Shown here in pieces: positions 14,201 to 39,987 of a stretch of DNA of 60,258 bases. This stretch comes from a virus (lineage: Duplodnaviria; Caudoviricetes). Made by a program: the position numbers and the translations under genes. The DNA is taken from positions 1-60,258 of the IMG/VR virus record IMGVR_UViG_3300007514_000008. One strand, 5' to 3'. The notes under the pieces were generated by a model that did not search any database, was not told the DNA's origin, and was given only the letters and a program-made list of their open reading frames with translations. Position 1 is the first letter of the stretch; each line of letters begins with the position of its first letter.

Positions 14201-17200
14201 ATTACATGAGATAATTAAGTTTCATGGAACATCTAGATTAAAATCTACTGGCAGTAAGGCTAAAGAATTTCATTATCCTGAGATGAAAAAAGATGTCAGG
14301 AGACTTCAAGAGCTTATGCAGCAAGATGGCATTACTCTATTTTCACATTGGAATCAAGGTATAAGAAATGAATTTGTTGACAATCTTAAGAAAGCTACTC
14401 TAAAGCAAAAACTTCAAGGTCAGATAAGAAATTCAGATGGGACTGTTCGTGATGTTGAGGCTTCAGATATTGATAATATTGTTAAACTTATGGATTCAGG
14501 TCTTGTTAATGAAAATTTAACCTTGCTTAATGTAAAAGGTATTTGGGGAGACGTAAGTGGTCAACATACTGAGTCTCTTATCAATTCTTGGAGAGCAGGT
14601 AAGAGAGGTAAACCAATTCAGGGTGTAGATAATAATGTACAATTAGAGTTCAATAAATTCCTAGATGACATCCTTCTTGCAGAGAAGGCTGATAGGAGAG
14701 GTAGGACAGATAAGCAGATTAAAGACGAAATACAGGGGATAGCTTGGGATACTTTTAAGCAGTACCAAGAAGCTGTTGAGCCTTACGTTATTAAAAATAT
14801 TAAAGATAAAAACGGAGACATTAGAAGAAGTGGGATACTCCATCTTAATAAAACCCAAGAGGTTTTTATGGATAGGGCTACCCTTATATCTATTAATGCT
14901 CAAATGCACTGGGCTAACCACAATAAGAAGGCTGGTTCGGTTGAAAATTTTATTAATGACCTAAGAGATGCTTCAAAGAGTGAGAATATAGAGATGAGGA
15001 ATTTCGCTACTAGGTTGCTTAGAAATTTTGCTAGAAGTGATGCTGATTACACAAGAGCATTGGAATTAGCCAATAGATATAAACTTTATGATAGTGGTAA
15101 GAGGAAGTTTAATGAAGCTAAGGCAAAAATAGATGGTACTTTTGTTGAGCCTAGTGAGAGAATGAAGTTGTTTTTAACTCAAGTTGCTCGACCTACCTAT
15201 GGAAGTAAAAAGCAAGTAGAAGCTAATTATGATAAATGGAAAGATATAGAGACTTTAGAGAATGGTAATGAGGGTTTTCACCAAGAGAATATGTCTACAA
15301 TATCTCAAAAATATAACTTCTTTGGTCATTCTTTTAAGGATGGTTCTGAAATTATCTCCTATGGTGAACAGTCTGTTGTAGACCAATTACATCAAATACA
15401 TGACGGTTATGTTAAATCAAATGGGACTATTGACACAGATGGATTTATTCGTGATTTAAGAAAAGCTGCGGAGAAAAATGGTCCAAAGGATAGAGATGGT
15501 GACAAATTTAGTGACAAAGAGCTATCTAATTTAGATTCTGATTTAAATAAATTAAGAATGGATATAGTTAACTCTGAGACTATTCCCTTAGTTACAATTA
15601 ATACAGATAGAACTAATAGAGAAGGCTCTCACTATCATGATTTAAAGAATAAGGTTAAGACGACTCCTGTTACTCTAGGCATAAGGAAAATATTGGAGGG
15701 GGTTGAGATGCCTTCTAACCATATGCTTGGCGACTTTGTTATGATTGAAAGAGACATCATGACTGATGGTAATAAATATAAACCAATATCTGGTGATGGT
15801 GTAAGGGCAGATATAAACAAGCAGTTGTATGACGCAGAGAGAACATCCACAACTAAGGATATGAAGATAGTAGATGAGTCTGGTGTAGAAAGACCAATGA
15901 CTCAAGAGCAACCTAATAGAAAGGTGTTATATAGTTTCGGTTCTTCTAAGCAGTCATTTGGCATTGTTGCTGAAAGAGGTAGTTTAAATGCTATGGCAGG
16001 AAACTATCTTAGTTTTCTAAGGGGGTTAAAAAGATTTAAAGGTAAAGAAGGGGAAGCAGAACTTCAAGCATATCTAAATGAAACTTTTGGTGTACACTCT
16101 AATGGAATTAATTCAAGAATTAAAATTGTAGAGAAAGATGGTGAAGTAAGAATAGAAAGCACAAAAGAAGATGGTCATATCAATGCAGAGTCAGCTCAGC
16201 AGGCAGTAAAGAATATGATAGATGATAGAATCTTCATAGATGTGGTAGGTGCTGATTTCTATTTTAACAATATAAAGACTTTAGATGCTAAGAGTCAATC
16301 TACCTTAAATGGGAGATTGAGTTTATTTAACAATATGAATTCCAATACCTTAAGTAAGGAAATATTAACAGACATATCTAAGTATCAATTAGATTTTGCT
16401 AAAAAGGGAGATACTCAGGCATTATCAAACGCAAAAGCTCTGAAAGACCTTGCTGATGGTAAGTTCGAGATGAAAGTTTTTAGAGATGAATTCGCTCCAG
16501 AGCAAATGAAAAAAGAAGTTCACCATATGCTGAATGAACAGATAAAGCATTATGAGAATGAATTAGCTGACCCAAATTTACCAAAAGATTTAAGAGAAGG
16601 TATAATAGCAGATAGGGATGTTGCGAAGGAATTATTAGCCGATAAGAGTGGTATGGATGGGTTTACACTTGTCAATCCTAGACTATTTGATGCACTGGCG
16701 TCTATTATGGGTGCTGGGGCTGGTGACCACATCGGGGCAATTAAACCTATTATGCTAAGACACGGAGACCAGTTCTTTGTTAATAAAACAGCGTTCCAAA
16801 AAGATGCTACCTACTCAGATTTCTTTAAAGCAAATGAAAATCTTGGTATGGTTACATTTACATCAGCGTCTAAGTCTTTGCTTCCTAAGAATCAAGCCGG
16901 GGAAAGTGTATATCATCCGTGGTTTCAAGATAAGATTATAGAAGTCAATCAAAGCAAGTCATTGATGGATTATATAGCTGACCCTGCTCATGCAGGTAAA
17001 GCTATAAAGATTAGACCAGAAGATATTCAGTTAATGCAAGTAAAGGGCTTTAAAGATAAAGCAAAGATGGCAGTAAATCATGCTTTAGGAATGGAAGGTG
17101 AAGCTAGGAAGGACTTTATAAAGAAGCATTTAATGGGCAAGTGGGAAACAAATGGTGAGGCTATTCTTAAGTTAGTTAATCATGAAGTCGATGCTATTGC

Positions 17201-20200
17201 CTTTAATCAATTAAGAAATAGAGATATGTATGATAGTCTTATTGACACAGAGACTGCAGTCGGTGTATCTCAAAGGTTTGCTAACGAAGGTCTCAATCCG
17301 TGGGCGATGCCAAATATAAGGTCTTGGCAAAATATTTTAAAGTCTCATTTTATAGACCCTATTGCTAATATAGAAACTAATGGTACTATTGCTACCTTAT
17401 CTCCAGATATGCAAGGTAGACTTCGTGGTACTATTATGGTGAAGGGTAATAACCGCTCAGAAATCTATAGAATGGGAGAGAGTTCTCTACCTCATGAGAG
17501 TAGGAATCAAAAGTTTAATCCATCAGAGACAATGATTATTGATGCCATTGGAACTGCTAAAGGTTCTGATAAAGGTCAAATGATTACTGCTAAGGAGTAT
17601 ATGGATAAGCATAACCTTAAGGCAGAGACTCTTGGTGAGTTATATGATGCTATTTCTGGTCCATCTACAACTGCTCCAAAGAAAGGTGGTCGTGTAGAGT
17701 TTACAACTGAGCTAGGTAGTACATATGTAGTAGACGGGACAACAACTAGAAGGACAAAAGTTCCCAAAACTGGTAAAGGACCGGGATTAAAAGAGAGGTC
17801 AACTGTTACTATGTATATGTCTGAAATGTCTGCCAAACAAGCATTTGGTCAACCATTTGGTGCTATGCAAGTATCTGGAGCAAAGAAAATTGAATTTGGT
17901 GAACTAGGTGTTACAATAAATGGTAAAACTTTTAGTGCGCAGAATAAACCTAAAAAGGGTTTACTCCCTGTTGAATTTATGCAGGGAGACACAGGGACAT
18001 CATATCATGTAGGTCATAAGATTATTAAGATAGGCACAGAACAAGTTGTTGTTCCAGCAAAACATAATAAGAGTATTCTAGTAGCTTGGGAAAGAAATCC
18101 TCATACCAAGCCAGATTCAGTTGTATTACTTAGACTTAAAGATTTTAAAGCCGCAGAAGATGGTGCTAATGGTCAAGTGTCATTTTCAGACGGAAGAAGA
18201 GGACTAGAATTTGACCATGATTTAGACACGGGTAATGCTAGATGGGATTTAGGTAGGAATGTAGCAGAGCATTATTTTAATCAAAGAGGGAGAGTTGCTG
18301 ATTCTCAAGCTAGAAAAGGTGTTACATCTGTAAATGAAAAGATGGATATATTTAAAGCAGAAGAACATCAGAATAGATTATCTCAAGAGCATCGAGGTGA
18401 CTTAATGAAGGGTATCGTTATGAAAACCCAGAGGGTCATCGACCATGTTAAGGATATGGTCAATAGAATTCCAAATGAAGATAAATTAATTCATTTAGGT
18501 GGAAACAGATATGCCAAGTTCAGAACAGATAGAGTTGCCATTGATGAGAAATTGCAACAGTTAGCAAACGATATACAGGGAGTCCTTGATTCAAAGAAAG
18601 GATATGACTCTGATTATTATGCTGATATGTATTCTACCGATATAGGAAATAAGTTTTTATTTGGACCAGACGGTTTATTTCAACCTTATGTGAAGAATAA
18701 AGTGGATGGTGGAATCGTAGTTGAACAATCTGGTCGTTTTACAGAAGTTGATTTAACTGCTTTAAGGGCAGGTATTATAGACCCAATAAATAGATTGGCA
18801 AGAATAACAAGTGCTGATTATTCTCAAACAGGAAAAAGAGAGCAGGTTAGCTTTGATGCTATGATGACTGCTATAGAATACTATAATGGTAACATGAGAT
18901 GGCAACATAAGGTCATACAGAAAGCATTAGAGAAGGCAGGTCTTGGTGGAACAAAGGAATGGTCTGGAGATGGTAAGGATTACGCGGCTAGATTTATGGA
19001 GAATGGCGAAAAAGCTAGTATGTTATTAAATCTGCGTGAAGGAGACTTGGGTTCTCATAGCGTTTTTGAGAGACAGATGTCTCTAATGTATGATTTAGGT
19101 AGGAAGGCAAGGATACGCCCACCTGCTAATAGAAATGAGCCAGAGTCTACCTTTATGAATGGTATTGAGAGCATGACACATAATAAGGATGTGTCTGGAT
19201 TTATGACTGAATACGGAAAATCTATTAAAGATACAGCTAGTAAACTTGGTGCTATAGATATGATAGAAAGAAAAATTAAAAGCACTCAGGAATTAGTCAG
19301 GGAATCATCTCTTCATAGTGATTTTAATGGTATGGACTATTTTAGGAACAGACTTGAAAGATTGAAGAGTGTCAAAAAAGGCATACAGGACAAATTAAAA
19401 TACAAGATTGATTCAGATGGTAATTCTATTAGAAAAGATAATGATGGACAATGGAAGACGCAGGGTAGTAGGGCTACTAATTTAGAAAAGGCTATGTGGA
19501 AAGCAGTTATTAGAGAAAAGAGGAGGGGATTATTAAATAGAGCTTTAAAAAAAGCAGATGGCAATAGGGAAAAGGAACTGGAAATCTTTGAGAAATTTGA
19601 AAAAGATAATAAAGATGATGCTCTTGTTATGAAAGAGCTTGAAAAGAATGGGATTGAATTTACTACTATGGGTACTAGAGAAATGATTTCAGCAGTTGCT
19701 ATGCAAAAGGCTTTTGGAACTTTATCTAATGTAGAAATGTTTATGGATGCTGGTTCAAATGTAAGGCAATTACATCATATGACTAGCTTTGTTAATCGTC
19801 AAGCCCGTGAAATGAGAGAATATATTGATTCACGATGGAATGATTTTAATAATAGTGACAAGCCTAATGAATTAGCTACTCAAGTTGCTAAGGACATACA
19901 AGCTTCTATGGAACAGAAATTCCTTACTATTTTTAATGAAAACCCAGATATGGCTAAATTATTTATCTTTAAGGTCATGACTCCTGAAATAAATTATGGT
20001 AAGTTAGTTAAAGCAGGTAATCGTATGATGTTTGCACCTAAAAATGCGAATCACCATAGGTTTGCTACCGCTGGATTTAAGTTCTTTAATGAAACCCAAC
20101 AAATACCTGAAGCTATGAAACAAGTTATATTTAAGGATATGACTGAAGTTATGAATAGTGCTTATAGGGAAATTATCCATCCAACCGAGACTAAATGGGA

Positions 20201-20777
20201 TTACGCTAATGGTGTAACTGATATTTTGGAGGTTTCATTTAATGGTAATGGAGAGCTTACTCATACATTAAGGAAAGGTCAGACTGCTGATGCTAAAATG
20301 GGTTCTATAGGTAAAGAATTGATTGAAGAAACTAATATATTCTATCAGTATGATAACCCACTTATGTATAATAGCACAGGTCTTGTTAGTGATGTTGTAA
20401 GAGAAGTTAATCCTAATCTTGGTAGTAGTAAGTGGGGAGCAGAGTATAGCCAATTAACTCAATATGAGATGATGAGAAAAGTATTTGGCACAGGGGGTAT
20501 ACGAGAAGCAATAAGTAAAAGAAGTATTCCATTCTTTCCAAGTGGAGCAATAGATAAAATGACAAAACATGGTCATGCTTATGGTATTGGTGGTATGGCA
20601 GACTATAGAAGGGCAATAGAGAGGGAGGCTACTGGGCTTTTAGGGGACTTACACGGAAAAGAAGGACTGTTAGGAGAGGGTAGTAATATGGATTTTAATA
20701 CAAATGTCATGCTTGGTAGACACAAGAAAGCAAGAGATGTTGTAAAAGAACAAATAGACAAACTATGTAATAAGTAG
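11232..20777 (+). CDS. Giant virion protein containing a single-chain two-barrel (DPBB) RNA polymerase
   Basis: Ordered motifs MDGF (16653), NKTAF (16782), SASK (16863), ERNPH (18090), catalytic-like DHDLD (18213-18227) and VLDSKKG (~18582) parallel those of QDE-1/RDR-type and crAss-like phage polymerases. Confidence 0.8.
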   Translation: MGLPLFGSTVQEKLRSTTQNVTTPTVSLGEFDFPTEHKWFDEMPEIPKTEALAGVPKPPQPRESGTANEFLGRLMWGALDSATFNALRWATDDKSKSLADTMMGEESGQTRAGMWGEGIGQAAGFLVPFGTFAKGGKVLVSSVGKYGSKNVAKKITDEIAEATAKKASVQFTTKSGSIMKGPKYTEELARDKFLKIMDKQYSGKKVMNHYADGMKSVAERNVFRERVTKNFAENLQEEMAKSGLRLDGATAKAIESTYAKFFTKAETMPVSSIAGAIQRFMAKRVPGLGWDSKLASAGSLMMEEAILFAGVESMFEGINASQNDREAHYGETISHAAKMGMMLGAVRLIPGGKKGYNKLGLAGPLSGAESGFGGFRKLILNREPYKNRINHTVEKLKGGGTKPTEDTQALFEVFNMIQQGGQTLKGSPVKDILMRSAKDNPWVKKGIFGGKSGKNSVSISNFDAGDIERILGQSGSGWRTIGGVRVNQKEVASQIMADGLDDVFRNFKTSWQKNFFKEYAEDFLRSSPRMVIGGITMAGGPGIVMDENIEFVDKVYHIALGGFMMKHGKQLKWYGKDGRAIEGSQFFGKAQPWGFHEKFKEQTAMMELLGGNPKDHYMWQSFKEQMEGKPLVSYLDSVIRSSKETKDILKVKDEFLRESKGKNIYFTEGTPKEIKDNSEIANNKENKDLYEIFVSHGANNFMPAESPKNGNVFSVKKWEHLTNREKKNFIKKMKEKNVKSSDDYLDIIIDSNIDVIHDIQNSIQGGLVSALQQKFKKGTRGEEDGAMWMASDTSDGKIRLPKIDAETTGSKKLSESELQSVVKYNQMVDFLHEAGRVEIFSKNAQDTGTKVNMDSPRLGEFLSSIESVHKTVQEKLGLGGSETHEIALNDPVFVTANRFFNTHNNIKTAESWIGKVMYDKNVGNRDITFEGDTKQEAKSLLRKIFYASGDGRTGRVSELDVVHDLIKVDKKTKQKDGDVQLSREQEFVDSLHEIIKFHGTSRLKSTGSKAKEFHYPEMKKDVRRLQELMQQDGITLFSHWNQGIRNEFVDNLKKATLKQKLQGQIRNSDGTVRDVEASDIDNIVKLMDSGLVNENLTLLNVKGIWGDVSGQHTESLINSWRAGKRGKPIQGVDNNVQLEFNKFLDDILLAEKADRRGRTDKQIKDEIQGIAWDTFKQYQEAVEPYVIKNIKDKNGDIRRSGILHLNKTQEVFMDRATLISINAQMHWANHNKKAGSVENFINDLRDASKSENIEMRNFATRLLRNFARSDADYTRALELANRYKLYDSGKRKFNEAKAKIDGTFVEPSERMKLFLTQVARPTYGSKKQVEANYDKWKDIETLENGNEGFHQENMSTISQKYNFFGHSFKDGSEIISYGEQSVVDQLHQIHDGYVKSNGTIDTDGFIRDLRKAAEKNGPKDRDGDKFSDKELSNLDSDLNKLRMDIVNSETIPLVTINTDRTNREGSHYHDLKNKVKTTPVTLGIRKILEGVEMPSNHMLGDFVMIERDIMTDGNKYKPISGDGVRADINKQLYDAERTSTTKDMKIVDESGVERPMTQEQPNRKVLYSFGSSKQSFGIVAERGSLNAMAGNYLSFLRGLKRFKGKEGEAELQAYLNETFGVHSNGINSRIKIVEKDGEVRIESTKEDGHINAESAQQAVKNMIDDRIFIDVVGADFYFNNIKTLDAKSQSTLNGRLSLFNNMNSNTLSKEILTDISKYQLDFAKKGDTQALSNAKALKDLADGKFEMKVFRDEFAPEQMKKEVHHMLNEQIKHYENELADPNLPKDLREGIIADRDVAKELLADKSGMDGFTLVNPRLFDALASIMGAGAGDHIGAIKPIMLRHGDQFFVNKTAFQKDATYSDFFKANENLGMVTFTSASKSLLPKNQAGESVYHPWFQDKIIEVNQSKSLMDYIADPAHAGKAIKIRPEDIQLMQVKGFKDKAKMAVNHALGMEGEARKDFIKKHLMGKWETNGEAILKLVNHEVDAIAFNQLRNRDMYDSLIDTETAVGVSQRFANEGLNPWAMPNIRSWQNILKSHFIDPIANIETNGTIATLSPDMQGRLRGTIMVKGNNRSEIYRMGESSLPHESRNQKFNPSETMIIDAIGTAKGSDKGQMITAKEYMDKHNLKAETLGELYDAISGPSTTAPKKGGRVEFTTELGSTYVVDGTTTRRTKVPKTGKGPGLKERSTVTMYMSEMSAKQAFGQPFGAMQVSGAKKIEFGELGVTINGKTFSAQNKPKKGLLPVEFMQGDTGTSYHVGHKIIKIGTEQVVVPAKHNKSILVAWERNPHTKPDSVVLLRLKDFKAAEDGANGQVSFSDGRRGLEFDHDLDTGNARWDLGRNVAEHYFNQRGRVADSQARKGVTSVNEKMDIFKAEEHQNRLSQEHRGDLMKGIVMKTQRVIDHVKDMVNRIPNEDKLIHLGGNRYAKFRTDRVAIDEKLQQLANDIQGVLDSKKGYDSDYYADMYSTDIGNKFLFGPDGLFQPYVKNKVDGGIVVEQSGRFTEVDLTALRAGIIDPINRLARITSADYSQTGKREQVSFDAMMTAIEYYNGNMRWQHKVIQKALEKAGLGGTKEWSGDGKDYAARFMENGEKASMLLNLREGDLGSHSVFERQMSLMYDLGRKARIRPPANRNEPESTFMNGIESMTHNKDVSGFMTEYGKSIKDTASKLGAIDMIERKIKSTQELVRESSLHSDFNGMDYFRNRLERLKSVKKGIQDKLKYKIDSDGNSIRKDNDGQWKTQGSRATNLEKAMWKAVIREKRRGLLNRALKKADGNREKELEIFEKFEKDNKDDALVMKELEKNGIEFTTMGTREMISAVAMQKAFGTLSNVEMFMDAGSNVRQLHHMTSFVNRQAREMREYIDSRWNDFNNSDKPNELATQVAKDIQASMEQKFLTIFNENPDMAKLFIFKVMTPEINYGKLVKAGNRMMFAPKNANHHRFATAGFKFFNETQQIPEAMKQVIFKDMTEVMNSAYREIIHPTETKWDYANGVTDILEVSFNGNGELTHTLRKGQTADAKMGSIGKELIEETNIFYQYDNPLMYNSTGLVSDVVREVNPNLGSSKWGAEYSQLTQYEMMRKVFGTGGIREAISKRSIPFFPSGAIDKMTKHGHAYGIGGMADYRRAIEREATGLLGDLHGKEGLLGEGSNMDFNTNVMLGRHKKARDVVKEQIDKLCNK

Positions 20778-32590: not shown

Positions 32591-33171
32591 ACCTGAAATC
32601 CTCCTGACTCTTCAATAAATTTTCTAAATTGAACTGCGACTTCAGCTTTGAATGGATAATTTGCCATAAAACTTTTTGTTGTACCCTTTCCTCTACATCC
32701 ATTACAAGTATAGTTAGGGTCTTCCTTTCTTGCTTCTCTTCCAAGTTTATCATTTCTCAATCCAGTTCCATCACAACAATGACAAGTTTCTTCAGGTAAT
32801 TGATTCATCCATTTTGTATGATTCTTTTCATATTCTTCATGATATTTATTTTTTTCAGCTTTTTTTAATTTTCTCACCATCTTCACAGCAGTAGTTTTAG
32901 GAACTGTATTCCCAGAATTGTCAGCACCTGCATCCATATGTTTAACTGTCATAACATCTTGACATACTTCACAAGTATATGCCCATAATGTTCTCCACCA
33001 CCATACGTTACTTCTCCAGTAATTACCCGGAACAGCTTTTTCATAAGCATCTAATTCAATCCAATATGCTTCCTTTGCTTCTTCAGATAAATCAGAGAAC
33101 CCTTCTGGGAAAATAGGTCTTTCTACATTAAGTTTGTTTATTGGGTTTAATCCATATACATCGAATCCCAT
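32584..33171 (-). CDS. Hypothetical protein with DnaJ-type Zn finger
   Basis: Two CxxCxGxG repeats (CHCCDGTG, CNGCRGKG). Confidence 0.7.
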   Translation of the reverse strand: MGFDVYGLNPINKLNVERPIFPEGFSDLSEEAKEAYWIELDAYEKAVPGNYWRSNVWWWRTLWAYTCEVCQDVMTVKHMDAGADNSGNTVPKTTAVKMVRKLKKAEKNKYHEEYEKNHTKWMNQLPEETCHCCDGTGLRNDKLGREARKEDPNYTCNGCRGKGTTKSFMANYPFKAEVAVQFRKFIEESGGFQVC

Positions 33172-33192
33172 GTTTAACTCCTTTATGTTAAA

Positions 33193-33237
33193 GGTAACGA
33201 CCCTACTAACTCAACAATCGAGGATTCAGGTCGCACC
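33193..33237 (-). other. Small stem-closed intergenic element
   Basis: GGT-aa-CGACC pairs with GGTCG-c-ACC. Confidence 0.35.
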
Positions 33238-33245
33238 AGCTTCAA

Positions 33246-33911
33246 TTAACTACCTACAGAAAACTCAGTAATAATTTGCTTTCTTTCATTAACACACTTA
33301 ACCAGTGTATCAACAGGAATGAAATTGGCTATTGCCGCTTTCACTCTAAAGCAATTTTCCACATTTAATAGGTAATAAGCTACTTTTCTCGCATGAGAAC
33401 TAGTCACTTTACCAGTATATGTTCTGTAGATTCCAATACACATTTGATACGTATTAGCAGAATGACCGTTATCCAGTATTCTCTTAAACATACCAGTAGC
33501 ATATTTCTTACCCAACCACTTCTCAAGGCATTTAATCCTATTGAGATGTGTTTTAGGTATTTCAGCACCTTTCATGTATCTCCATAAATATTGATGACCA
33601 TTTAATAACATGGTATCTTTATTCGATGAGATAAATAAGGCATCATACAGTTCCTCAGACGTACTATTGTGCTGAACAATAGATACTTTTACATCACTGT
33701 ATTTAATACCATCCGATTTCGCTATCTGTTGCAAAGCAGACTTTCGCCTATGACCATCAATAATAGTCATTTTATCAGCAACTACGATAGGTTGCAGTAA
33801 TCCATTCTTCCTTATATTTGTAGCTAAGGAACTAATCCCTTTATCCGTCCGTTGTGGGGGATTATATGGAGAACTGACTAATTCACTTAAAGCGCAGATT
33901 CTGTACTTCAT
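33246..33911 (-). CDS. ParB/Srx N-terminal domain protein
   Basis: SPYNP, LATNIRKNGLLQPIVV, IIDGHRR. Confidence 0.85.
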   Translation of the reverse strand: MKYRICALSELVSSPYNPPQRTDKGISSLATNIRKNGLLQPIVVADKMTIIDGHRRKSALQQIAKSDGIKYSDVKVSIVQHNSTSEELYDALFISSNKDTMLLNGHQYLWRYMKGAEIPKTHLNRIKCLEKWLGKKYATGMFKRILDNGHSANTYQMCIGIYRTYTGKVTSSHARKVAYYLLNVENCFRVKAAIANFIPVDTLVKCVNERKQIITEFSVGS

Positions 33912-33996
33912 AATGAACTCTCCTTCTGTTTATGGTTATGAAAATCTTTATGAGTAATATAAGATATATCTGATGATACTAATATATGATACTAAA

Positions 33997-34417: not shown

Positions 34418-34750
34418 TTAGTCAAATCCATATTCTTGTTGAATTTTTGATAAATGGTCGCCTTCTACAAGTTGGTCATAATTATATCCGTACATGACCT
34501 TTAATCTGTCGTATGCATCAGTATATTCATCGTGGTATCTCTCATCACCATTTGGCAGACCATCAAATTCTTCTATAATGTATTCATGAGCAAATATATT
34601 CCTAAGAACAGAAGTAAATTCTGTTGCACTAGGTTTGGCTTGTTGAGAGTTAAAATCAAACCAATTTTTTAATGTACGAGAAATATGTATCTCTCTTCCA
34701 TTCTTATTGACTTGATATTCAAATTGGTTAATTGGTTGATGTTTATCCAT
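34418..34750 (-). CDS. Hypothetical early protein
   Basis: SD AGGAG; 110 aa. Confidence 0.65.
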   Translation of the reverse strand: MDKHQPINQFEYQVNKNGREIHISRTLKNWFDFNSQQAKPSATEFTSVLRNIFAHEYIIEEFDGLPNGDERYHDEYTDAYDRLKVMYGYNYDQLVEGDHLSKIQQEYGFD

Positions 34751-34788
34751 AATATCTCCTGTATTTTATGATATGTGGTTTGGTTTAG

Positions 34789-35220
34789 TCAAGCAGTTAC
34801 TTCATGATACCCCCAGATACCTTTCCATTTAATTAACTTAGGCAATTTAACATAGCCGTCCATATTGGGTTTATCTTTGTATGACTCAAGCATATATTTT
34901 GATAAAATAATGCCTGCTTGTACTGGTGCTTTATTCACACCATGAGTCAAGGTAATGTGTAAAGGAATATCAGTATTACCATGTTGATACCTTAATGTTT
35001 GTTTCTTCAAGCCCTCTCCAAAGTAAGTATAACAAGAGAGTGCGTTCATATCTTCTGCACAACACATTCCATAGATATATACATCAGCAGGTTGCCCATC
35101 TTTAATACCAATGGGAAACTTTGATTTTTCCAAACTATAATCATATGTAACATGAAGTGGGGAAGTTTTAGCACTATCTGGGAAAAATATTCCTGTGTAA
35201 ATGACTTTATTTGCCATCAC
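34789..35220 (-). CDS. 2H phosphoesterase superfamily protein
   Basis: Two HxT motifs (PLHVTY, PLHITL) ~65 aa apart, followed by APVQAG, as in cyclic-phosphodiesterase domains; SD AGGAGG. Confidence 0.65.
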   Translation of the reverse strand: MMANKVIYTGIFFPDSAKTSPLHVTYDYSLEKSKFPIGIKDGQPADVYIYGMCCAEDMNALSCYTYFGEGLKKQTLRYQHGNTDIPLHITLTHGVNKAPVQAGIILSKYMLESYKDKPNMDGYVKLPKLIKWKGIWGYHEVTA

Positions 35221-35404
35221 GCACCTCCTTTGTCTTCTTTGATGACTTTTTAGGTAATGCTTTTAGTGTAAGAAACACTGGTTGAGGAGCAGTATATTTT
35301 TTCTTCTTTCCATCTTTCCATATCCATCCACGTTTACGAGACTTACTAATCTGTCTTGATGTAACGCCTTGTTCTCTTCCGAGTTCTTTATTTGTTTTGT
35401 TCAC
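35207..35404 (-). CDS. Small basic hypothetical protein
   Basis: K/R-rich 65 aa; GTG start with SD GGAGG. Confidence 0.55.
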   Translation of the reverse strand: MNKTNKELGREQGVTSRQISKSRKRGWIWKDGKKKKYTAPQPVFLTLKALPKKSSKKTKEVRDGK

Positions 35405-35579
35405 GTTTCCTCCAGTGGTTATAACACAATGTTGGTGGATAATCTTTCTGTATTGTTAATCTCGTCTTTATAAATTTTCCACATAAATCTCCATCTTTAT
35501 TAACAACCTGTCTACATTTATGAGATTTACTCACATCTGTGTAAGGATGCTCTCTTTTAAGTTTTTTAGTATTCGACAT
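35388..35579 (-). CDS. Small Cys-containing hypothetical protein
   Basis: SD AGGAG; C...C...C..H spacing. Confidence 0.55.
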   Translation of the reverse strand: MSNTKKLKREHPYTDVSKSHKCRQVVNKDGDLCGKFIKTRLTIQKDYPPTLCYNHWRKREQNK

Positions 35580-35606
35580 TATTGTCTCCTGTTTGTTTTA
35601 AAATTA

Positions 35607-36072
35607 GAGAGTTGCTCTGTCCCGCCTTTGGTTAGATTACTCTACTACAGAGCTTCATATCAATCAAGGATAGCCCAGTTAAGACATAACCTTGAGTACA
35701 TCTGGAATACAAAAGACATAGGTAATTAATCCACATCTTAGGCATCCCGTTTGCCGATGCCTGCAAGACACGATAATCTTACAGTAACCTCCCGTCTCTA
35801 ATTCACAATGTTCGCACACTGCTAGGTCTTTTTTTAGGATAGACCAAATTCTCCACCTTTCTCTGGTTACAGAGCTTGAATACCCATATATCTGATACTA
35901 TGTACCAGACCTGTCCTTTAGGGACTGCAAATTTGATATTCTATCCTACCACAGGATGAAAGTGTTTGCTTAATAGCCGAGAAGACCTAAGCGAGAATAC
36001 CCTAACTGTTCGTTATCTTTGTTTAACGGTTAGCTTGATAATCTGATAGTTACTTCAATCAAAGCAACTCTC
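35607..36072 (-). ncRNA. Large structured non-coding RNA candidate (~466 nt)
   Basis: Perfect 10-bp terminal stem 35607-16/36063-72 enclosing nested stems 35823-30/35982-89, 35835-43/35940-48, 35845-50/35930-35 and 35862-67/35904-09, plus hairpins 35664-95, 35740-62 and 36002-33. No credible ORF. Strand taken from context; G-U evidence is mixed. Confidence 0.75.
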
Positions 36073-36086
36073 AAGTTTGAAAATTT

Positions 36087-36159
36087 TGGGGAATGGATGA
36101 CATACCGGGCTAATTACCGTCATCATGCAATAGTAATACACCGAATTGCTCATTCCCCA
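36087..36159 (-). ncRNA. 73-nt three-way junction with complementary loops
   Basis: TGGGGAATG/CATTCCCCA (9 bp), GATGAC/GTCATC, GCAAT/ATTGC; loop segments ATTAC and GTAAT are complementary. Confidence 0.65.
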
Positions 36160-36168
36160 TTGTATCCA

Positions 36169-36270
36169 TTAATGGAACGGTGCCCCATCTAAAATGAACA
36201 TAATAACCATCAAGAAATACATAAGCACAACCAATATGATTGCGCCTAGTACTTCTTTCACCTTATCCAT
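36169..36270 (-). CDS. Small membrane protein (33 aa), absent from the ORF track
   Basis: MDKVKEVLGAIILVVLMYFLMVIMFILDGAPFH, overlapping the upstream stop. Confidence 0.5.
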   Translation of the reverse strand: MDKVKEVLGAIILVVLMYFLMVIMFILDGAPFH

Positions 36271-36490
36271 GAATCGTCACCCAATCACTTAACCAATCTC
36301 TGCACTTGCGGAGTCCAGATGGTCCAACGCCTTTATAACGCTTCAGGTCCAATGGATTAGTATTAGCGATTGCCCACCAACAAGCATTTATATCGCTGTG
36401 GTTCAATTCAATTTGATGATGTCTCTCAACCGCTTTAATGATAGCTGGAGAAACATATCGAGTGATGGTATCTTTCACGGGTTTATACAT
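36263..36490 (-). CDS. Hypothetical early protein with HhH-like motif
   Basis: DLKRYKGVGPSG; SD AGGAGG. Confidence 0.65.
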   Translation of the reverse strand: MYKPVKDTITRYVSPAIIKAVERHHQIELNHSDINACWWAIANTNPLDLKRYKGVGPSGLRKCRDWLSDWVTIHG

Positions 36491-36512
36491 GAAGACCTCC
36501 TGTTTATGGTTT

Positions 36513-36662
36513 TAGGGAACAGAGGGGATGGAACAGCCTAATCCACTCTTACCAGAACTAAATCTTCATCCACTTAATCAATATGTGGAGAGGTGTGATT
36601 AGCACTAATAGACTGAACTCATATGCCTCTGTATGTTATTGCCCATGTTATTGGGTTTCCTA
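36513..36662. ncRNA. Structured intergenic element (~150 nt)
   Basis: TAGGGAAC/GTTTCCTA, ACAGAGG/CCTCTGT, TCCAC/GTGGA and GCCCA/TGGGT stems. Confidence 0.45.
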
Positions 36663-36736
36663 TATATATATATGAGATAGTATGTACACATATATCCCAT
36701 TAATAATAAGGAATAAAAGATAAAAAGAATAAAAGC

Positions 36737-36759
36737 GGTGACAGTAGGACACTGCCACC
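36737..36759 (-). terminator. Intrinsic terminator after the first early gene
   Basis: - strand GGUGGCAGU-GUCCU-ACUGUCACC followed by GCUUUUAUUCUUUUU. Confidence 0.7.
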
Positions 36760-36765
36760 TAACTT

Positions 36766-37074
36766 CTACTTAACCTTAGCCTGCAATAGCTTTATCTCTT
36801 CCTGTAACTCAAGGATAGTAGGCTCATTGGAAGGTTTATCATCTTTCTTTATTTCATCTGTACCAGAGACAAGCATTTCTTTCATGATTTCAGTAAGCAT
36901 AGCTTTCATCTTGGATTTCTGGTCATCAGACGTATCAAGGTCACTTTGCAGTGCTTGAATAAAGTTTGATGTTTGTTGAGGGGATGCACCAAATCTACGT
37001 GTTTTACGCTCCCACGCTGCCATGTGTGCTTGGATAGTTAGAGCTTTCATGAGTTTATCTGTGTTTACACTCAT
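36766..37074 (-). CDS. First gene of the leftward early block, hypothetical
   Basis: SD AAGGAGG; 102 aa. Confidence 0.7.
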   Translation of the reverse strand: MSVNTDKLMKALTIQAHMAAWERKTRRFGASPQQTSNFIQALQSDLDTSDDQKSKMKAMLTEIMKEMLVSGTDEIKKDDKPSNEPTILELQEEIKLLQAKVK

Positions 37075-37204
37075 AGTTGTTATACCTCCTTTACAAGGTG
37101 TTTAGTATTGATTGACTTCTAACTTGATAAGTTATTATCAGAAACCTCATAAAGACCGGGGCGTGTGTATATATGGTTGTCTATCAAAATGCTATAAATT
37201 TTTG

Positions 37205-37233
37205 TTGTAAATAACCTGGGCAACCTCTACATT
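37205..37233 (+). promoter_or_regulatory. Sigma70-like promoter for the packaging/structural block
   Basis: TTGTAA, 17-bp spacer, TACATT, then SD AAGGAG before 37256. Confidence 0.55.
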
Positions 37234-37255
37234 CTTTTAAATAAAGGAGTTAATT

Positions 37256-37450
37256 ATGACTATTACATCAAAAGATTTATCTGGTCCAGAAGCTCATACA
37301 GGAGTGGCTAGAGATGAACACGATAAAAAGTTAAAAGAACTACAGGAACTTCAGGCAAAGATAGATAAATTAAAGCCTAAGTTTGAAGGTCCACATGACC
37401 CGGGTGACGAGGATGACTCTAAAAAGAAAAGTAAGCAAAAGAAAAAGTAA
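37256..37450 (+). CDS. Hypothetical protein
   Basis: SD AAGGAG; charged 64 aa. Confidence 0.6.
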   Translation: MTITSKDLSGPEAHTGVARDEHDKKLKELQELQAKIDKLKPKFEGPHDPGDEDDSKKKSKQKKK

Positions 37451-37514
37451 TAAAGTATTATATAATATATATAATATAATATATATATATGTAATAGGCT
37501 GTCGGTAGGTTCTT

Positions 37515-37763
37515 ATGGCAGTTAAAATAGAAGCGTTAAGTGATTTAAGCTTGGAGGAACAATCAGAAGTTCTAGAAAAAATGGCAGAATATTTTTTGGA
37601 TAGTAATAAGTGGAAAACTTTTAATAATGAATCCGAAAGCATGACAGTAGATATAGAAGTTGATGGCACTGTCTATAAAGTCCCTAAACCAGTAAATGAA
37701 CTACTAAATGCTATCTATAGGATGTATGAACGAGAAGTAATGCTTAGGGATAAAAAAGATTAA
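37515..37763 (+). CDS. Hypothetical protein
   Basis: ORF abutting the putative TerS gene. Confidence 0.55.
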   Translation: MAVKIEALSDLSLEEQSEVLEKMAEYFLDSNKWKTFNNESESMTVDIEVDGTVYKVPKPVNELLNAIYRMYEREVMLRDKKD

Positions 37764-38528
37764 ATGGAATACAGGGAGATAAAGAGGGTAAAACATTATG
37801 TATATGATGATATTGAAGAATTCCCACACAAGGATGTTGAACCTGTTAAAAATTGGAGAGAGGGTAAACAAGGTGACTGGGTTTACTCAGACGATAATAG
37901 GATAGTTCAATTACTTAAAGTAAGCGAAAAGCTGAAACATCCTCATGACCGACCAAACTATAGTCATAGTAAAGGTTATGTTAGGACTATCGTTGGCACT
38001 TTCCTACGAAATGATAAGACGCAAATGGATACCAACTTTGAAGAACATCCTAACAGGTATACTTTCTCGAAAAAAATTAAAAACACCAATTCACGAGTTA
38101 GAGAGAGAAAGAACGCAACGAATAAAGAAAAATTATTTGCAACAACTGTGGCGGTTGGAACTGACGCAGTTAAAGCATACATGGAAGCTTTTGAAGAAGA
38201 TAATAGGGATAAAGCTAGGAAAAAAGCCGTAGTCCTGTTAAAACAAAGGAGAGTTATGGAAGAGATACAGAAGAGTGTAAAGGATGTCGCAGAAAATCTA
38301 GGCATCAATCACGAATATGTACTTCGTTCTCTGAAGCACTTAGCTGATTTTAGTGAGGATGAGAATATATCTCTGCAATCACTAAAGGAATTAGGAAAAG
38401 CAGTAGGAACTTTAGGAGGTGGACCAAAAAGAATTGAAACCGGGGTGGTCGGTATGTTTCAAGGTTTTTCTCCTGAGCAGATACAGGGAGCAAGAAGAGA
38501 GCTTAAAGACACAAATGAGGTTGAATAA
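37764..38528 (+). CDS. Putative terminase small subunit
   Basis: HTH-like TNKEKLFA...AVKAYMEAF...AVVLLKQRRVMEEI followed by oligomerisation-type helices; upstream of TerL. Confidence 0.6.
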   Translation: MEYREIKRVKHYVYDDIEEFPHKDVEPVKNWREGKQGDWVYSDDNRIVQLLKVSEKLKHPHDRPNYSHSKGYVRTIVGTFLRNDKTQMDTNFEEHPNRYTFSKKIKNTNSRVRERKNATNKEKLFATTVAVGTDAVKAYMEAFEEDNRDKARKKAVVLLKQRRVMEEIQKSVKDVAENLGINHEYVLRSLKHLADFSEDENISLQSLKELGKAVGTLGGGPKRIETGVVGMFQGFSPEQIQGARRELKDTNEVE

Positions 38529-39596
38529 ATGGGTATCAATGAACATCTCGATAACGAGACTTTCACTACAGACAATGATGATAATATTATCGGTTGTCCT
38601 CACTGTGGGACTCGTCACTTAAGGAGGGATGGATGGAACTATTACAAAGACTCGAAGAAACAAATGTGGCTTTGTTATGGTTGTCATAGAAAAACATTAA
38701 AACCAAAAATACTACAACCAAGTCCCTTCAAAAAGGAAGTCCCCATTACTGAGGATTTACCAGTTGAAGATATTATAAAGCACAGGAGTAAACAATATAC
38801 TCAAAAAGTAAAAGGAAGGGGCAGTAAGAAATTAATTAACGTGGATGTTAATATAGATGGACCAATAGGAATTGCCCATTTTGGCGACCCTCACGTTGAT
38901 GATGATGGAACAAATATTGCACAAATCATTCAATACACAAATATTATCAACAAGACAGAAGGATTGTTTGCTGGGAATCTCGGTGATATTCAGAACAACT
39001 GGGTTGGTCGTCTTTCTCACCTATATGGACAACAATCCACATCAGCCAAAGAGTCTTGGAGGTTATCTGAGTATTTCGTGAATAGTGTAGAATGGCTATA
39101 TCTAATTGCAGGTAATCATGATGTATGGTCAGGAGATGGTGACCCATTGGATTTTCTGATGCGTGACCACAAAGGAGTATATGAAAAATGGGGAGCGAGA
39201 ATGAATATAAGATTCCCTAATGGCAAGGAGGTAAGAATAAATGCTAGGCACACATTCAAGGGGAATTCTATATGGAATACTGCACACGGAGTTTCAAGAG
39301 CTATCCAAACTGGATGGCGTGACCATTTGCTTACTTGTGGTCATACTCATGTATCTGGCTATCAAGTACTCAAAGACCCATCAACAGGGTTAATAAGTCA
39401 CGGACTGCAAGTGGCATCATTTAAGATTATTGATAATTATGCAGATAAATTAGGACTAGATGATAAGAATATTTTCAACTGTCCTATAACTATAATCGAC
39501 CCTCAGTATGAGGATTACGATAATAGACTAATAACAGTCATATTCAATCCAGAAATTGGAGCAGAATATCTAACCTTCTTGAGGAATAGGAAATGA
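38529..39596 (+). CDS. Calcineurin-like metallophosphoesterase with N-terminal Zn ribbon
   Basis: CPHC...CYGC, then GDPH, GD, GNHD, RH and GHTH motifs. Confidence 0.88.
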   Translation: MGINEHLDNETFTTDNDDNIIGCPHCGTRHLRRDGWNYYKDSKKQMWLCYGCHRKTLKPKILQPSPFKKEVPITEDLPVEDIIKHRSKQYTQKVKGRGSKKLINVDVNIDGPIGIAHFGDPHVDDDGTNIAQIIQYTNIINKTEGLFAGNLGDIQNNWVGRLSHLYGQQSTSAKESWRLSEYFVNSVEWLYLIAGNHDVWSGDGDPLDFLMRDHKGVYEKWGARMNIRFPNGKEVRINARHTFKGNSIWNTAHGVSRAIQTGWRDHLLTCGHTHVSGYQVLKDPSTGLISHGLQVASFKIIDNYADKLGLDDKNIFNCPITIIDPQYEDYDNRLITVIFNPEIGAEYLTFLRNRK

Positions 39597-39748
39597 TGAG
39601 ATACTATTGGGAAGCAATATTCAGCACAGAGTATTTCCCCTATTGGGAATTTACAATGTTGATGATGTTAATGATGCTTCTTAGTGTTCTATGGAGATTA
39701 AATCGCATAGAAAAAAAGATAGATGGAAGTTGGTGGGCTAAGTCCTAA
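39593..39748 (+). CDS. Small membrane protein (51 aa), absent from the ORF track
   Basis: MMRYYWEAIFSTEYFPYWEFTMLMMLMMLLSVLWRLNRIEKKIDGSWWAKS; ATGA and TAATG couplings on either side. Confidence 0.6.
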   Translation: MMRYYWEAIFSTEYFPYWEFTMLMMLMMLLSVLWRLNRIEKKIDGSWWAKS

Positions 39749-39987
39749 TGCCGACTCCATTTATGTGTCACGAGTGTGACAAACCAACAATGAATAACAC
39801 AGGAATCTGTGATAGTTGCGTAGAACCAACAACCGCAGACGAATACAATGAGGAGTATTATGAGTATAAAGAGAAAGGGCGTGACAAAAGGCGAGATAGT
39901 CTCAAACTTAAAAGGTCTTATAGAAACGCAGGACAAGATAGTTCAATGGTTAAAAGCTATAAACGAAAAGCTAAGTTTGGTAGATAA
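39748..39987 (+). CDS. Small Zn-finger protein
   Basis: CHEC...CDSC; TAATG coupling; its 3' half overlaps the next ORF. Confidence 0.5.
   Translation: MPTPFMCHECDKPTMNNTGICDSCVEPTTADEYNEEYYEYKEKGRDKRRDSLKLKRSYRNAGQDSSMVKSYKRKAKFGR

What the first reader, a model, noticed from the sequence alone, without database searches (positions are those of the whole stretch)
35607..36072. ~466-nt highly structured non-coding RNA candidate
Seen: a perfect 10-bp terminal stem (13 bp with a G-U on the - strand) encloses a long nested arm (TAGGTCTT/AAGACCTA, TAGGATAGA/TCTATCCTA, CAAATT/AATTTG, TCTGGT/ACCAGA) and several hairpins. A 10-mer TACAGAGCTT occurs twice (35646-55, 35868-77) and each copy can pair with GCTCTGT (35614-20), overlapping the terminal stem, which suggests alternative folds or intermolecular pairing. 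Size and phage location recall large ornate RNAs such as ROOL and GOLLD, but I cannot assign it to either. RNase P, tmRNA and group I intron signatures were not found. G-U evidence for strand is mixed.
Basis: partly seen in the sequence, partly recalled or inferred. Interest (0 to 1): 0.82.

Follow-up and report, generated by a model that had tools for sequence, protein, structure and literature searches.

The report
Orphan structured RNA in marine phage
An uncultured 60-kb marine phage carries a roughly 470-base gene-free stretch that folds unusually well on one strand and turns up as its own piece in ocean RNA libraries from several studies, so it is most likely a new stable non-coding RNA of unknown function.

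Summary
All stems and repeats are at the stated coordinates. The element (35607-36075) fills an ORF-free gap in the leftward (minus-strand) early operon of a complete 60,258-bp virus record.

- **Fold:** the minus strand folds at -140.8 kcal/mol (z -4.2, 0 of 100 shuffles). The plus strand gives -108.4 (z -2.5). The minus fold has 26 G-U pairs that break on the plus strand.
- **Known families:** Rfam 15 (4227 families) gives no credible match. ARAGORN finds no tRNA or tmRNA.
- **Transcripts:** contigs from four marine RNA-labelled libraries (four studies, one of doubtful RNA/DNA status) cover 35607-35966, 35717-36075, 35625-36012 and 35624-36008 without a single difference. None runs into a neighbouring gene.
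- **Homologues:** none found except a 99.8% identical fragment. Searched: GenBank phages, plasmids, IMG/VR, JGI metagenomes, GTDB genomes, 80 TerL-related loci and 5 near-complete relatives. Covariation therefore cannot be tested.

Best reading: a discrete, stable, structured minus-strand ncRNA closed by a 13-bp terminal stem, released from the early transcript and acting in trans. Its function is unknown. It belongs to no known family. The fold statistics and the terminal stem are not unique within this genome.

The parts
35607..36075 (-). Proposed mature RNA, about 469 nt, 40% G+C
   Evidence: Outermost ends of RNA-library contigs are 35607 (X12) and 36075 (X3). Fold z is -4.2 on this strand. 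No Rfam match.
36060..36072 (-). P1, 5' strand of the 13-bp terminal stem (GAGAGUUGCUUUG)
   Evidence: Pairs with 35607-35619, mean pair probability 0.99, one G-U.
35607..35619 (-). P1, 3' strand (CAGAGCAACUCUC)
   Evidence: X12's contig starts at 35607.
35596..36083 (.). Extended inverted repeat with 24-nt arms (35596-35619 / 36060-36083), 83% complementary. It reaches beyond the RNA ends and could be a double-stranded processing site in a precursor.
   Evidence: and rank 2 of 16 genome-wide. The processing role is inferred.
35990..35996 (-). P1b 5' strand (UCUCGCU), pairing with 35620-35626 (GGCGGGA). Stacks on P1 and closes the multi-branch core.
   Evidence: 7-8 bp, probability 0.81-0.87.
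35998..36040 (-). 5' arm: weak outer helices and a 5-bp hairpin (36024-36028 / 36011-36015)
   Evidence: inner helix probability 0.93, outer helices 0.58-0.62.
35823..35989 (-). Central long arm: three stacked helices (8, 9 and 8 bp) carrying three hairpins (35913-35925, 35890-35910, 35861-35874)
Evidence: MEA fold (probabilities 0.50, 0.78, 0.76; hairpins 0.99, 0.98, 0.76). The MFE fold pairs this part differently.
35805..35822 (-). 7-bp hairpin with a GCGA (GNRA-type) tetraloop
   Evidence: probability 0.96.
35785..35804 (-). Purine-rich linker GAAUUAGAGACGGGAGGUUA, unpaired in the MEA fold
   Evidence: In the MFE, 7 of its bases pair with 35978-35984 at probability 0.25.
35761..35784 (-). 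9-bp hairpin with 2 G-U pairs
   Evidence: probability 0.99.
35704..35748 (-). Long hairpin (7 + 9 bp, 5 G-U pairs) with a 9-nt loop UUAAUUACC that contains the self-complementary UAAUUA
   Evidence: probabilities 0.98 and 0.95. A loop-loop pairing role is speculation.
35664..35695 (-). Hairpin (6 + 4 bp)
   Evidence: probability 0.98.
35639..35653 (-). Small hairpin whose 5' half is one copy of the 10-mer (plus strand TACAGAGCTT, 35646-35655). The other copy (35868-35877) likewise starts the hairpin at 35861-35874.
36087..36159 (-). Upstream hairpin (9-bp perfect stem, 55 nt enclosed) between the stop of the 33-aa gene and the RNA 5' end
   Evidence: I5. Role unknown (terminator of upstream genes, or leader of a precursor).
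36169..36270 (-). Upstream neighbour: 33-aa hydrophobic peptide gene
   Evidence: A 54% identical relative is in L005.
35388..35579 (-). Downstream neighbour: 63-aa Cys-rich protein gene with an AGGAGA ribosome-binding site 14 nt after the RNA
   Evidence: A 46% identical relative is in L013.

Best explanation
The stretch 35607-36075 encodes a discrete, stable, structured non-coding RNA of about 470 nt, read from the minus strand as part of the phage's leftward early operon.

**Shown**
- The stretch has no credible ORF.
- It folds far better than shuffles on the minus strand only.
- Sequence from RNA libraries of several marine studies assembles into pieces that cover this stretch and stop at or inside its ends.

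**Inferred**
- Transcription starts at the divergent promoter zone near 37.1-37.5 kb, or at an unrecognised promoter just upstream of the RNA.
- The transcript is cut or terminated at the long terminal inverted repeat. A 24-bp imperfect duplex in the precursor, an RNase III-like substrate, leaves a 13-bp closing stem. The stem is followed on the 3' side by UAAUUUU.
- The two paired ends and about 150 base pairs protect the RNA from exonucleases, so it accumulates.

**Speculative**
- It acts in trans early in infection as a protein- or RNA-binding scaffold or decoy (host take-over or counter-defence), or as an RNA-only assembly in the manner of ROOL and GOLLD.
- This rests only on its position in the hypervariable early region, where relatives carry other non-coding cargo.
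For: **Non-coding**
- The gap between the 33-aa gene (stop at 36169) and the 63-aa gene (start at 35579) holds only TTG- or GTG-started ORFs of 44-46 aa on the minus strand.
- 0 of the 4 ORFs tested have PHROG matches.

**Structure and strand**
- Minus strand: -140.8 kcal/mol, z -4.23, 0 of 100 shuffles. Repeat: z -4.1, 0 of 60.
- Plus strand: -108.4 kcal/mol, z -2.47.
- The minus MFE has 148 pairs, 26 of them G-U. Mirrored on the plus strand those 26 break and the energy falls to -52.7. The plus MFE has 132 pairs, 9 of them G-U.
- 142 positions have pair probability above 0.9, against 72 +/- 42 in shuffles; 5 of 60 shuffles do as well.
- All neighbouring genes from 23.6 to 37.1 kb are on the minus strand.

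**RNA libraries**
- 12 of the 20 listed runs that hold part of 35300-36500 are on record as RNA.
- Four runs were laid, one from each of four studies. Three are RNA-Seq; X4 is marked 'RNA? (probably DNA)'.
- The element is covered by one contig per run: 35607-35966 (X12), 35717-36075 (X3), 35625-36012 (X4) and 35624-36008 (X9). All four have 0 other letters, 0 gaps and no loose ends.
- None of the 9 laid pieces bridges an end of the element into a neighbouring gene. X3 and X4 hold neighbouring genes as separate contigs.
- X4 and X9 stop within 1-4 nt of each other at both ends. DNA runs X1 and X2 hold all sampled words of the 1201-nt query. By the tool's own standard this is a weak hint of RNA ends.
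- The libraries that assembled it are small, 43 to 243 million letters.

**Not a known family**
- Rfam 15 gives 0 matches at gathering score in the whole window.
- At E up to 10 only chance-level hits appear: 4 in 901 nt and 1 in 501 nt, none to a large RNA, RNase P, tmRNA or an intron.
- ARAGORN gives 0.

**Context**
- The early leftward region is swapped out even in a phage whose TerL is 90% identical.
- Relatives hold ORF-free gaps of 300-970 nt at the same place. 4 of the 10 folded gaps reach z of -3.4 or below on the minus strand.
Against: - **No homologue, so no covariation.** Only a 99.76% identical fragment exists, with 0 of its 13 differences in the RNA. Conserved structure, the usual standard for a structured RNA, is untested.
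- **Fold stability is not unique.** It is high within this genome but not the highest: the top window of the scan lies elsewhere, and three windows at 33.2-33.5 kb score alike.
- **The terminal stem is not unique.** It is one of 16 comparable inverted repeats.
- **Limits of contigs.** They cannot show strand, true ends or level. The tool warns that DNA can be present in RNA libraries and that holders cover what they were found with. One of the four laid runs is of doubtful RNA/DNA status.
- **No promoter or terminator.** No sigma-70-type promoter was found upstream of 36075, and no canonical terminator at either end. Promoter-like sites in 34500-38000 number 9, against 13.9 +/- 3.7 in shuffles.
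- **Function.** Nothing bears on function. No excess pairing to phage translation-start regions was found.
Confidence: 0.55

Rival explanations
1. It is a cis-acting leader or terminator region. On this reading the stretch is the structured end of the immediate-early leftward transcript. It stops transcription before the replication genes (the 63-aa gene, ParB-like, Cas4-like exonuclease, DnaB) until a phage factor allows read-through. The RNA seen in libraries would be the exonuclease-resistant 3' remnant, with no trans function.
For: - The element lies about 1 kb downstream of the divergent promoter zone and directly upstream of the replication module.
- The closing stem is followed by UAAUUUU.
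- No laid contig bridges from the element into the downstream gene.
Against: - 470 nt with about 150 predicted pairs is far more than a terminator needs in a compact phage genome.
- The closing stem encloses 440 nt, which is unlike an intrinsic terminator. The terminator scan lists nothing at either end.
- Relatives lack it yet keep the same gene order.
- The RNA-library contigs cover the 5' part as well, not only a 3' hairpin.
Confidence: 0.2
2. It is the same RNA read from the plus strand. That makes it an antisense-oriented transcript inside the leftward operon, starting near 35607 downstream of TAAAAT (35599-35604).
For: - A TAAAAT hexamer lies just before 35607 and TCGACA lies 20 nt upstream of it (read).
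- Contigs cannot tell the strand.
- The plus strand still folds at z -2.47.
Against: - The hexamer spacing (20 nt) and the distance to 35607 (2 nt) are wrong for a sigma-70 promoter, and the scan does not list it.
- The plus fold is 32 kcal/mol weaker and not better defined than shuffles: 34 positions with probability above 0.9, against 62 +/- 37.
- 26 minus-strand G-U pairs become mismatches on the plus strand.
Confidence: 0.1
3. It is a DNA-level element, either a miniature inverted-repeat mobile element or a replication origin. On this reading its transcription is incidental, and the contigs stop at its ends because it is a repeat found in many contexts.
For: - 24-nt terminal inverted repeats.
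- It sits in a replaceable cassette position.
- It lies next to the replication module.
- Assemblers break contigs at the borders of repeats.
Against: - It is not multi-copy. There is one copy in the genome.
- A 21-mer from it occurs in 1 IMG/VR stretch, the near-identical fragment.
- A second 21-mer occurs in 0 JGI metagenome stretches.
- The 11 metagenome loci and 1 GTDB locus that match the first 21-mer share only those 21-24 nt.
- No loose ends lead into other contexts.
- There is no directly adjacent target-site duplication (read).
- No iteron array is present: only two-copy repeats.
- The strand asymmetry of the fold points to RNA rather than DNA.
Confidence: 0.07
4. It is a messenger for one or more very small proteins that the ORF lists missed.
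For: Small ORFs exist: 44 aa (TTG start) and 46 aa (GTG start) on the minus strand. Phage early regions are rich in tiny genes; the 33-aa gene next door is an example.
Against: - There is no ATG start and no ribosome-binding site at the right distance. GGGAGG lies 22 nt before the TTG (read).
- No PHROG match at E up to 1.
- The start regions lie inside helices of probability above 0.95.
Confidence: 0.05

Closest known systems
GOLLD and ROOL large phage and prophage RNAs
   Same: Both are large (hundreds of nt), predicted to be richly branched, encoded by phages, of unknown function, and not tied to a protein partner. GOLLD was first seen in marine metagenomic sequence downstream of a Met-tRNA (PMC12286853, passages read). 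A close relative of this phage carries a degenerate tRNA-Met-like sequence in the same slot.
   Different: There is no sequence or structure match. Rfam holds profiles of both (PMC12286853 methods passage), and neither appears at E up to 10. The element is shorter (about 470 nt, against GOLLD's more than 800 nt; ROOL's roughly 580 nt is recalled). The window has no tRNA genes. There is no covariation support, and multimer formation is untested.
The ~800-nt most abundant transcript of Vibrio phage ICP1 (ORF-less space between gp139 and gp140)
   Same: It is a phage-encoded, ORF-less, highly represented transcript of several hundred nt with unknown role and no nearby tRNA (PMC7567579, passages read).
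   Different: It comes from a different phage group. GenBank phages give no DNA match. It sits at the start of the lysis cluster rather than in the early operon. Expression was measured there in culture; here it is inferred from metatranscriptome contigs.
PLE 'inter-inverted-repeat' transcript, and processed regulatory RNAs of P1/P7 (c4), P4 (CI) and N15
   Same: These are non-coding transcripts bounded by inverted repeats and released from a longer transcript. The authors suggest an origin from MITE-like elements (PMC7567579, passage read).
   Different: Those RNAs have antisense matches to leaders of genes in the same element. Here the best duplex with any of 94 phage translation-start regions (-33.7 kcal/mol) is weaker than the best of 19 of 20 shuffled RNAs. 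Those RNAs are also much smaller (recalled).
Candidate structured RNAs of viruses from the IMG/VR-wide covariation screen (PMC10690425)
   Same: They come from the same data source (IMG/VR intergenic regions).
   Different: That screen needed non-identical homologues and reported motifs of 29-151 bases (passages read). An orphan of about 470 nt would not pass it. Its supplementary tables and alignments could not be opened, so I cannot exclude that a sub-motif of this RNA, or of the relatives' gaps, is listed there.

Membership tests
ROOL / GOLLD / OLE / HEARO / raiA and all other Rfam 15 families | Match to the family covariance model at or above its gathering score | tested here: not met
   There are 0 matches in the whole window at gathering score. 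At E up to 10 the only match on the element is PVT1_5, at 19.7 bits against a gathering score of 60.
ROOL / GOLLD | Location beside tRNA genes in a phage or prophage (frequent, not obligatory) | tested here: not met
   ARAGORN finds 0 tRNA genes in the window.
ROOL / GOLLD | Homo-oligomeric cage formation | not testable with these tools
   This needs native gels, mass photometry or cryo-EM.
RNase P RNA, tmRNA, tRNA | Covariance-model or ARAGORN detection | tested here: not met
   With the ARAGORN threshold relaxed and introns allowed, only two implausible calls appear. One of them spans 35798-36148 and runs past the RNA end.
Group I / group II intron | Match to intron models, and an interrupted host gene whose exons join into one frame | tested here: not met
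   There is no intron model hit at E up to 10. The downstream gene has its own ribosome-binding site and start at 35579, with a similar start region in L005. The upstream gene ends at 36169.
Miniature inverted-repeat transposable element | Terminal inverted repeats | tested here: met
   The arms are 24 nt at 83% complementarity. Such repeats are not rare here: this one ranks 2 of 16.
Miniature inverted-repeat transposable element | Many copies in different contexts, with target-site duplications | tested here: not met
   There is a single copy in the genome. The only other context found is the near-identical fragment. No adjacent duplication is seen.
Intrinsic (Rho-independent) terminator | Compact G+C-rich hairpin followed directly by a U run | tested here: not met
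   The scan lists no terminator at 35607 or 36075. The closing stem encloses 440 nt, and UAAUUUU follows it.
Structured ncRNA in the strict comparative sense | Compensatory base changes across homologues | tested here: inconclusive
   No homologues were available. The one other copy has no differences in the RNA.

The most novel reading that the evidence does not exclude
This is the founding member of a new class of large phage RNA. It would be made early and in great excess over phage messengers in the open ocean, fold into a closed multi-arm particle, and work without a dedicated protein. It could act as a decoy or sponge against a host defence or host RNA-binding factor, or as a self-assembling RNA body like ROOL and GOLLD. 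It would also be one example of a wider habit in this very common, uncultured marine phage group (at least 598 TerL relatives in IMG/VR) of carrying interchangeable non-coding RNA cargo at one slot of the early operon.
Probability: 0.3. Interest if true: 0.8.

Novelty: new variant of a known kind. Interest (0 to 1): 0.6.

Why it matters
Large structured phage RNAs such as GOLLD and ROOL are few, and their roles are unknown. Each new, unrelated example that is demonstrably present in RNA from nature widens the set that can be probed for a common function.

This one comes from a phage group that is very widespread in marine viromes and has no cultured relative. Its RNA assembles from small ocean metatranscriptomes of several studies. 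That makes it a cheap target for in vitro work: about 470 nt with defined ends.

If the 'RNA cargo slot' idea holds, comparing what different relatives carry there would give a natural experiment on what early phage RNAs are for. So far that cargo includes this RNA, a tRNA-like piece and other well-folding gaps.

Tried and rejected
**Homologue searches (all negative)**
- blastn 'distant' against GenBank phages and plasmids: no match.
- IMG/VR exact 21-mer scan: 1 stretch, the 99.76% identical fragment.
- JGI metagenome contigs: one 21-mer gave 0 stretches. A second gave 11 stretches, and GTDB genomes gave 1. All 12 share only 21-24 nt and count as chance.
- Flanking proteins as anchors in IMG/VR (143 aa, 75 aa, 63 aa): each found only the same fragment.
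- nhmmer of the gap against 83 loci at E up to 0.01: only the 3 loci that are the window itself or the fragment.
- nhmmer --max at E up to 200 against the window plus 80 TerL-related loci: nothing beyond self.
- blastn-short: 98 short hits scattered in coding regions, read as chance.
- Whole records of 5 long relatives: only 14-16-nt matches.

**Steps not taken**
- No covariance model was built from the single sequence, because nhmmer --max was already blank.

- No contig of the four runs lies on 34600-35606 or on 36076-36174.
- Contig word depths were 125.9 (element) against 2.7-15.5 (upstream genes) in X3, and 48.6 against 5.3-5.5 in X4. X9 and X12 gave 62.3 and 8.19 on the element.
- Depth of contigs is a poor measure and absence of cover proves nothing.

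**Function tests**
- Pairing of the RNA to 94 phage translation-start regions was no better than shuffled RNA.
- No 12-mer upstream motif is shared in a meaningful way with other regions.
- No sigma-70 promoter or terminator lies at the ends.
- GGA motifs (7) are near chance by my own count, so a CsrA-type sponge is not indicated.
- CCUAAG and UAUGG both occur but are not in one helix, so there is no tetraloop receptor.

**Host**
- The best TerL match to a cultured phage is about 24% identical.
- Portal gave 4 weak matches, and DnaB was below 30% identity.
- The host remains unknown.

Full report
**Setting**

The window is a complete virus record of 60,258 bp with direct terminal repeats. Its G+C content is about 36%.

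- Genes from about 23.6 to 37.1 kb run on the minus strand. They include DnaB-like helicase, DNA methyltransferase, Cas4-like exonuclease, a ParB-like protein and many small unknown ORFs.
- From 37.5 kb onward, small terminase, an exonuclease, large terminase, portal and head genes run on the plus strand.
- The finding therefore lies about 1 kb into the leftward early operon. It sits between a 33-aa hydrophobic peptide gene (36270-36169) and a 63-aa Cys-rich protein gene (35579-35388).
- The phage has no cultured relative. The best large-terminase match in GenBank phages is about 24% identical, and all 433 matching records are below 60%.
- It does belong to a very large uncultured group. 598 of 599 candidate IMG/VR stretches encode a TerL relative, and the 80 kept are 75-90% identical.

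**Observation**

- Folded alone, the minus strand gives -140.8 kcal/mol (z -4.23, 0 of 100 shuffles).
- The plus strand gives -108.4 kcal/mol (z -2.47, 1 of 100).
- The minus fold has 148 pairs, 26 of them G-U. These become mismatches on the other strand, where the mirrored structure is worth only -52.7 kcal/mol. The plus fold has 132 pairs and 9 G-U.
- The minus fold is also better defined than shuffles: 142 positions with pair probability above 0.9, against 72 +/- 42, with 5 of 60 shuffles as good. The plus fold is not better defined.

Two cautions apply.

- In a scan of 660 windows across the genome (stopped at 49350 for time), the candidate's windows rank 2nd, 8th, 10th, 12th and 14th. The first place and several others lie elsewhere.
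- The terminal inverted repeat ranks 2nd of 16 comparable repeats.

Thermodynamics and the stem alone would not carry the claim.

**Anatomy**

These details come and are given in window coordinates on the minus strand.

- A 13-bp closing stem P1 (36072-36060 / 35619-35607, probability 0.99) stacks on a 7-8-bp P1b.
- Inside lie a weak 5' arm and a long central arm of three stacked helices. The arm bears three hairpins.
- Next come a 7-bp hairpin with a GCGA tetraloop and a 20-nt purine-rich unpaired linker.
- Then follow four further hairpins, three of them with helix probabilities of 0.95-0.99.
- The MFE and MEA folds disagree on the central arm.
- The two copies of the 10-mer each form the 5' half of a small hairpin.
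- The inverted repeat continues beyond the RNA ends to 24 nt per arm at 83%.

**Not a known family**

- Rfam 15 (4227 models) gives nothing at gathering score in the window or in 8 relatives' loci.
- At E up to 10 there are only chance-level matches to unrelated small or eukaryotic families.
- Rfam includes the GOLLD, ROOL and OLE profiles (PMC12286853 methods passage).
- ARAGORN finds no tRNA or tmRNA.
- No ATG-started ORF of 20 aa or more lies inside on the minus strand. None of the 4 small ORFs tested matches PHROGs at E up to 1.
- It is not an intron in a protein gene. The downstream gene has its own ribosome-binding site and start, with a similar start region in L005.

**RNA libraries**

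The index of public runs lists 20 runs holding part of 35300-36500. Of these, 12 are on record as RNA, 4 are 'RNA? (probably DNA)', and 2 DNA runs holding every word may be the source.

I laid four runs from four studies on 34600-37100. Of the 9 pieces laid, the four that lie on the element are:

| Run | Contig span | Differences |
|---|---|---|
| X12 | 35607-35966 | 0 |
| X3 | 35717-36075 | 0 |
| X4 (doubtful RNA/DNA) | 35625-36012 | 0 |
| X9 | 35624-36008 | 0 |

- None of these has a gap or a loose end, and none bridges into a neighbouring gene.
- The other five pieces, from X3 and X4, lie on upstream genes as separate contigs.
- The outermost ends, 35607 and 36075, fall on the first base of the closing stem and 3 nt beyond its last base.
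- X4 and X9 stop within 1-4 nt of each other at both ends.

By the tool's own rules this is presence in RNA libraries plus a weak hint of ends. It is not proof of strand, level or termini. Depth figures and uncovered flanks are listed under Tried and rejected.

My inference is that an RNA of this extent exists and is well represented. It rests on two points: libraries of only 43-243 million letters assembled it, and it assembled as an isolated piece.

**Relatives**

No homologue was found.

- The only other copy is a 5361-bp IMG/VR fragment 99.76% identical to the window. Its 13 differences all lie between 36685 and 39227.
- Every other search was blank or gave chance matches of 24 nt or less.
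- In L005, whose TerL is 90% identical, DNA similarity to the window starts only at 37117 and runs rightward. The leftward early region is replaced, apart from a 34-nt block at the 33-aa gene.
- At the matching place L005 has a 778-nt stretch that folds at z -6.4. It begins with a degenerate tRNA-Met-like sequence that ARAGORN calls only at a relaxed threshold.
- 18 relatives have between them 25 ORF-free gaps of 268-969 nt upstream of the small terminase gene.
- Of the 10 gaps I folded, 4 reach z of -3.4 or below on the minus strand.
- None resembles the window's RNA.

This suggests, but does not show, that the slot often holds non-coding cargo.

**Mechanism**

Shown:
- A non-coding stretch.
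- A fold specific to the minus strand.
- Presence in RNA libraries as a piece of its own.

Inferred:
- It is transcribed with the early leftward genes, or from an unrecognised promoter. No sigma-70-type site was found.
- It is released by cutting in the 24-bp imperfect duplex formed by the extended inverted repeat, or by termination at the closing stem followed by UAAUUUU.
- It is stabilised by paired ends.

Speculative:
- A trans role in host take-over or counter-defence, or self-assembly.

I found no sign of antisense targeting of phage start regions.

The main rival is a cis-acting early terminator or leader whose stable remnant is what the libraries hold. Lesser rivals are a plus-strand transcript, a DNA element and a tiny-protein messenger.

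**Comparison and novelty**

In kind it resembles three known cases:
- GOLLD and ROOL.
- The ~800-nt most abundant ICP1 transcript.
- The inverted-repeat-bounded PLE transcript (PMC7567579 and PMC12286853, passages read).

It is a member of none.

- The IMG/VR-wide covariation screen (PMC10690425, passages read) required non-identical homologues and reported motifs of 29-151 bases. Its supplements could not be opened.
- My literature searches listed no paper on this RNA. They are word searches and cannot find a sequence.

I rate it a new, unrelated example of a known kind of thing. It is real as a non-coding, RNA-library-supported element. It is unproven as a conserved structure, and its function is unknown.

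Noticed in passing
L005:987-1075 (minus strand), within the ORF-free stretch L005:321-1098: A close relative (TerL 90% identical) carries a degenerate tRNA-Met(CAU)-like sequence at the slot matching the window's RNA. It has an oversized D-loop and a long variable region and ends in ACCA. ARAGORN calls it only at a relaxed threshold, and Rfam gives nothing at E up to 1. The whole 778-nt stretch folds at z -6.4.
   Followed up: partly
L056:2169-2581, L015:6026-6406, L034:3563-4154, L025:5717-6055 and other gaps listed: TerL-related phages have ORF-free gaps of about 300-970 nt, 1-2 kb upstream of the small terminase gene. 4 of the 10 folded reach z of -3.4 to -4.3 on the operon's strand. They form small mosaic families among themselves but are unlike the window's RNA. 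This may be a recurrent non-coding cargo slot.
   Followed up: partly
window 39301-39766 (+); also 33151-33916 (-): These windows fold as well as or better than the candidate relative to composition (residuals -3.27 SD and about -2.7 to -2.8 SD) in the genome-wide scan. The first spans the end of the exonuclease gene and the gap before small ORFs upstream of large terminase.
   Followed up: no
window 11232-20777 (+) and 1597-6738 (+): Giant ORFs of 3181 aa and 1713 aa have no PHROG or Pfam match at the thresholds used. Their role (tail, injected protein, virion enzyme) is open.
   Followed up: no
window 37075-37514: This is the roughly 440-nt zone where the minus and plus gene blocks diverge. 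From 37117 rightward it is about 70% identical in DNA to L005, although the leftward genes next to it are not conserved. It is likely the shared control region with divergent promoters.
   Followed up: no
window 36169-36270 (-): A 33-aa strongly hydrophobic peptide gene lies directly upstream of the RNA, with a 54% identical relative in L005. A terminator-like hairpin predicted at 36248-36222 lies inside it.
   Followed up: no
window 35388-35579 (-) and 35207-35404 (-): The two small genes just downstream encode a 63-aa protein with Cys/His spacing that could bind zinc and a 65-aa very basic protein. Neither has a Pfam or PHROG match. They could be nucleic-acid binders, but nothing ties them to the RNA.
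   Followed up: no
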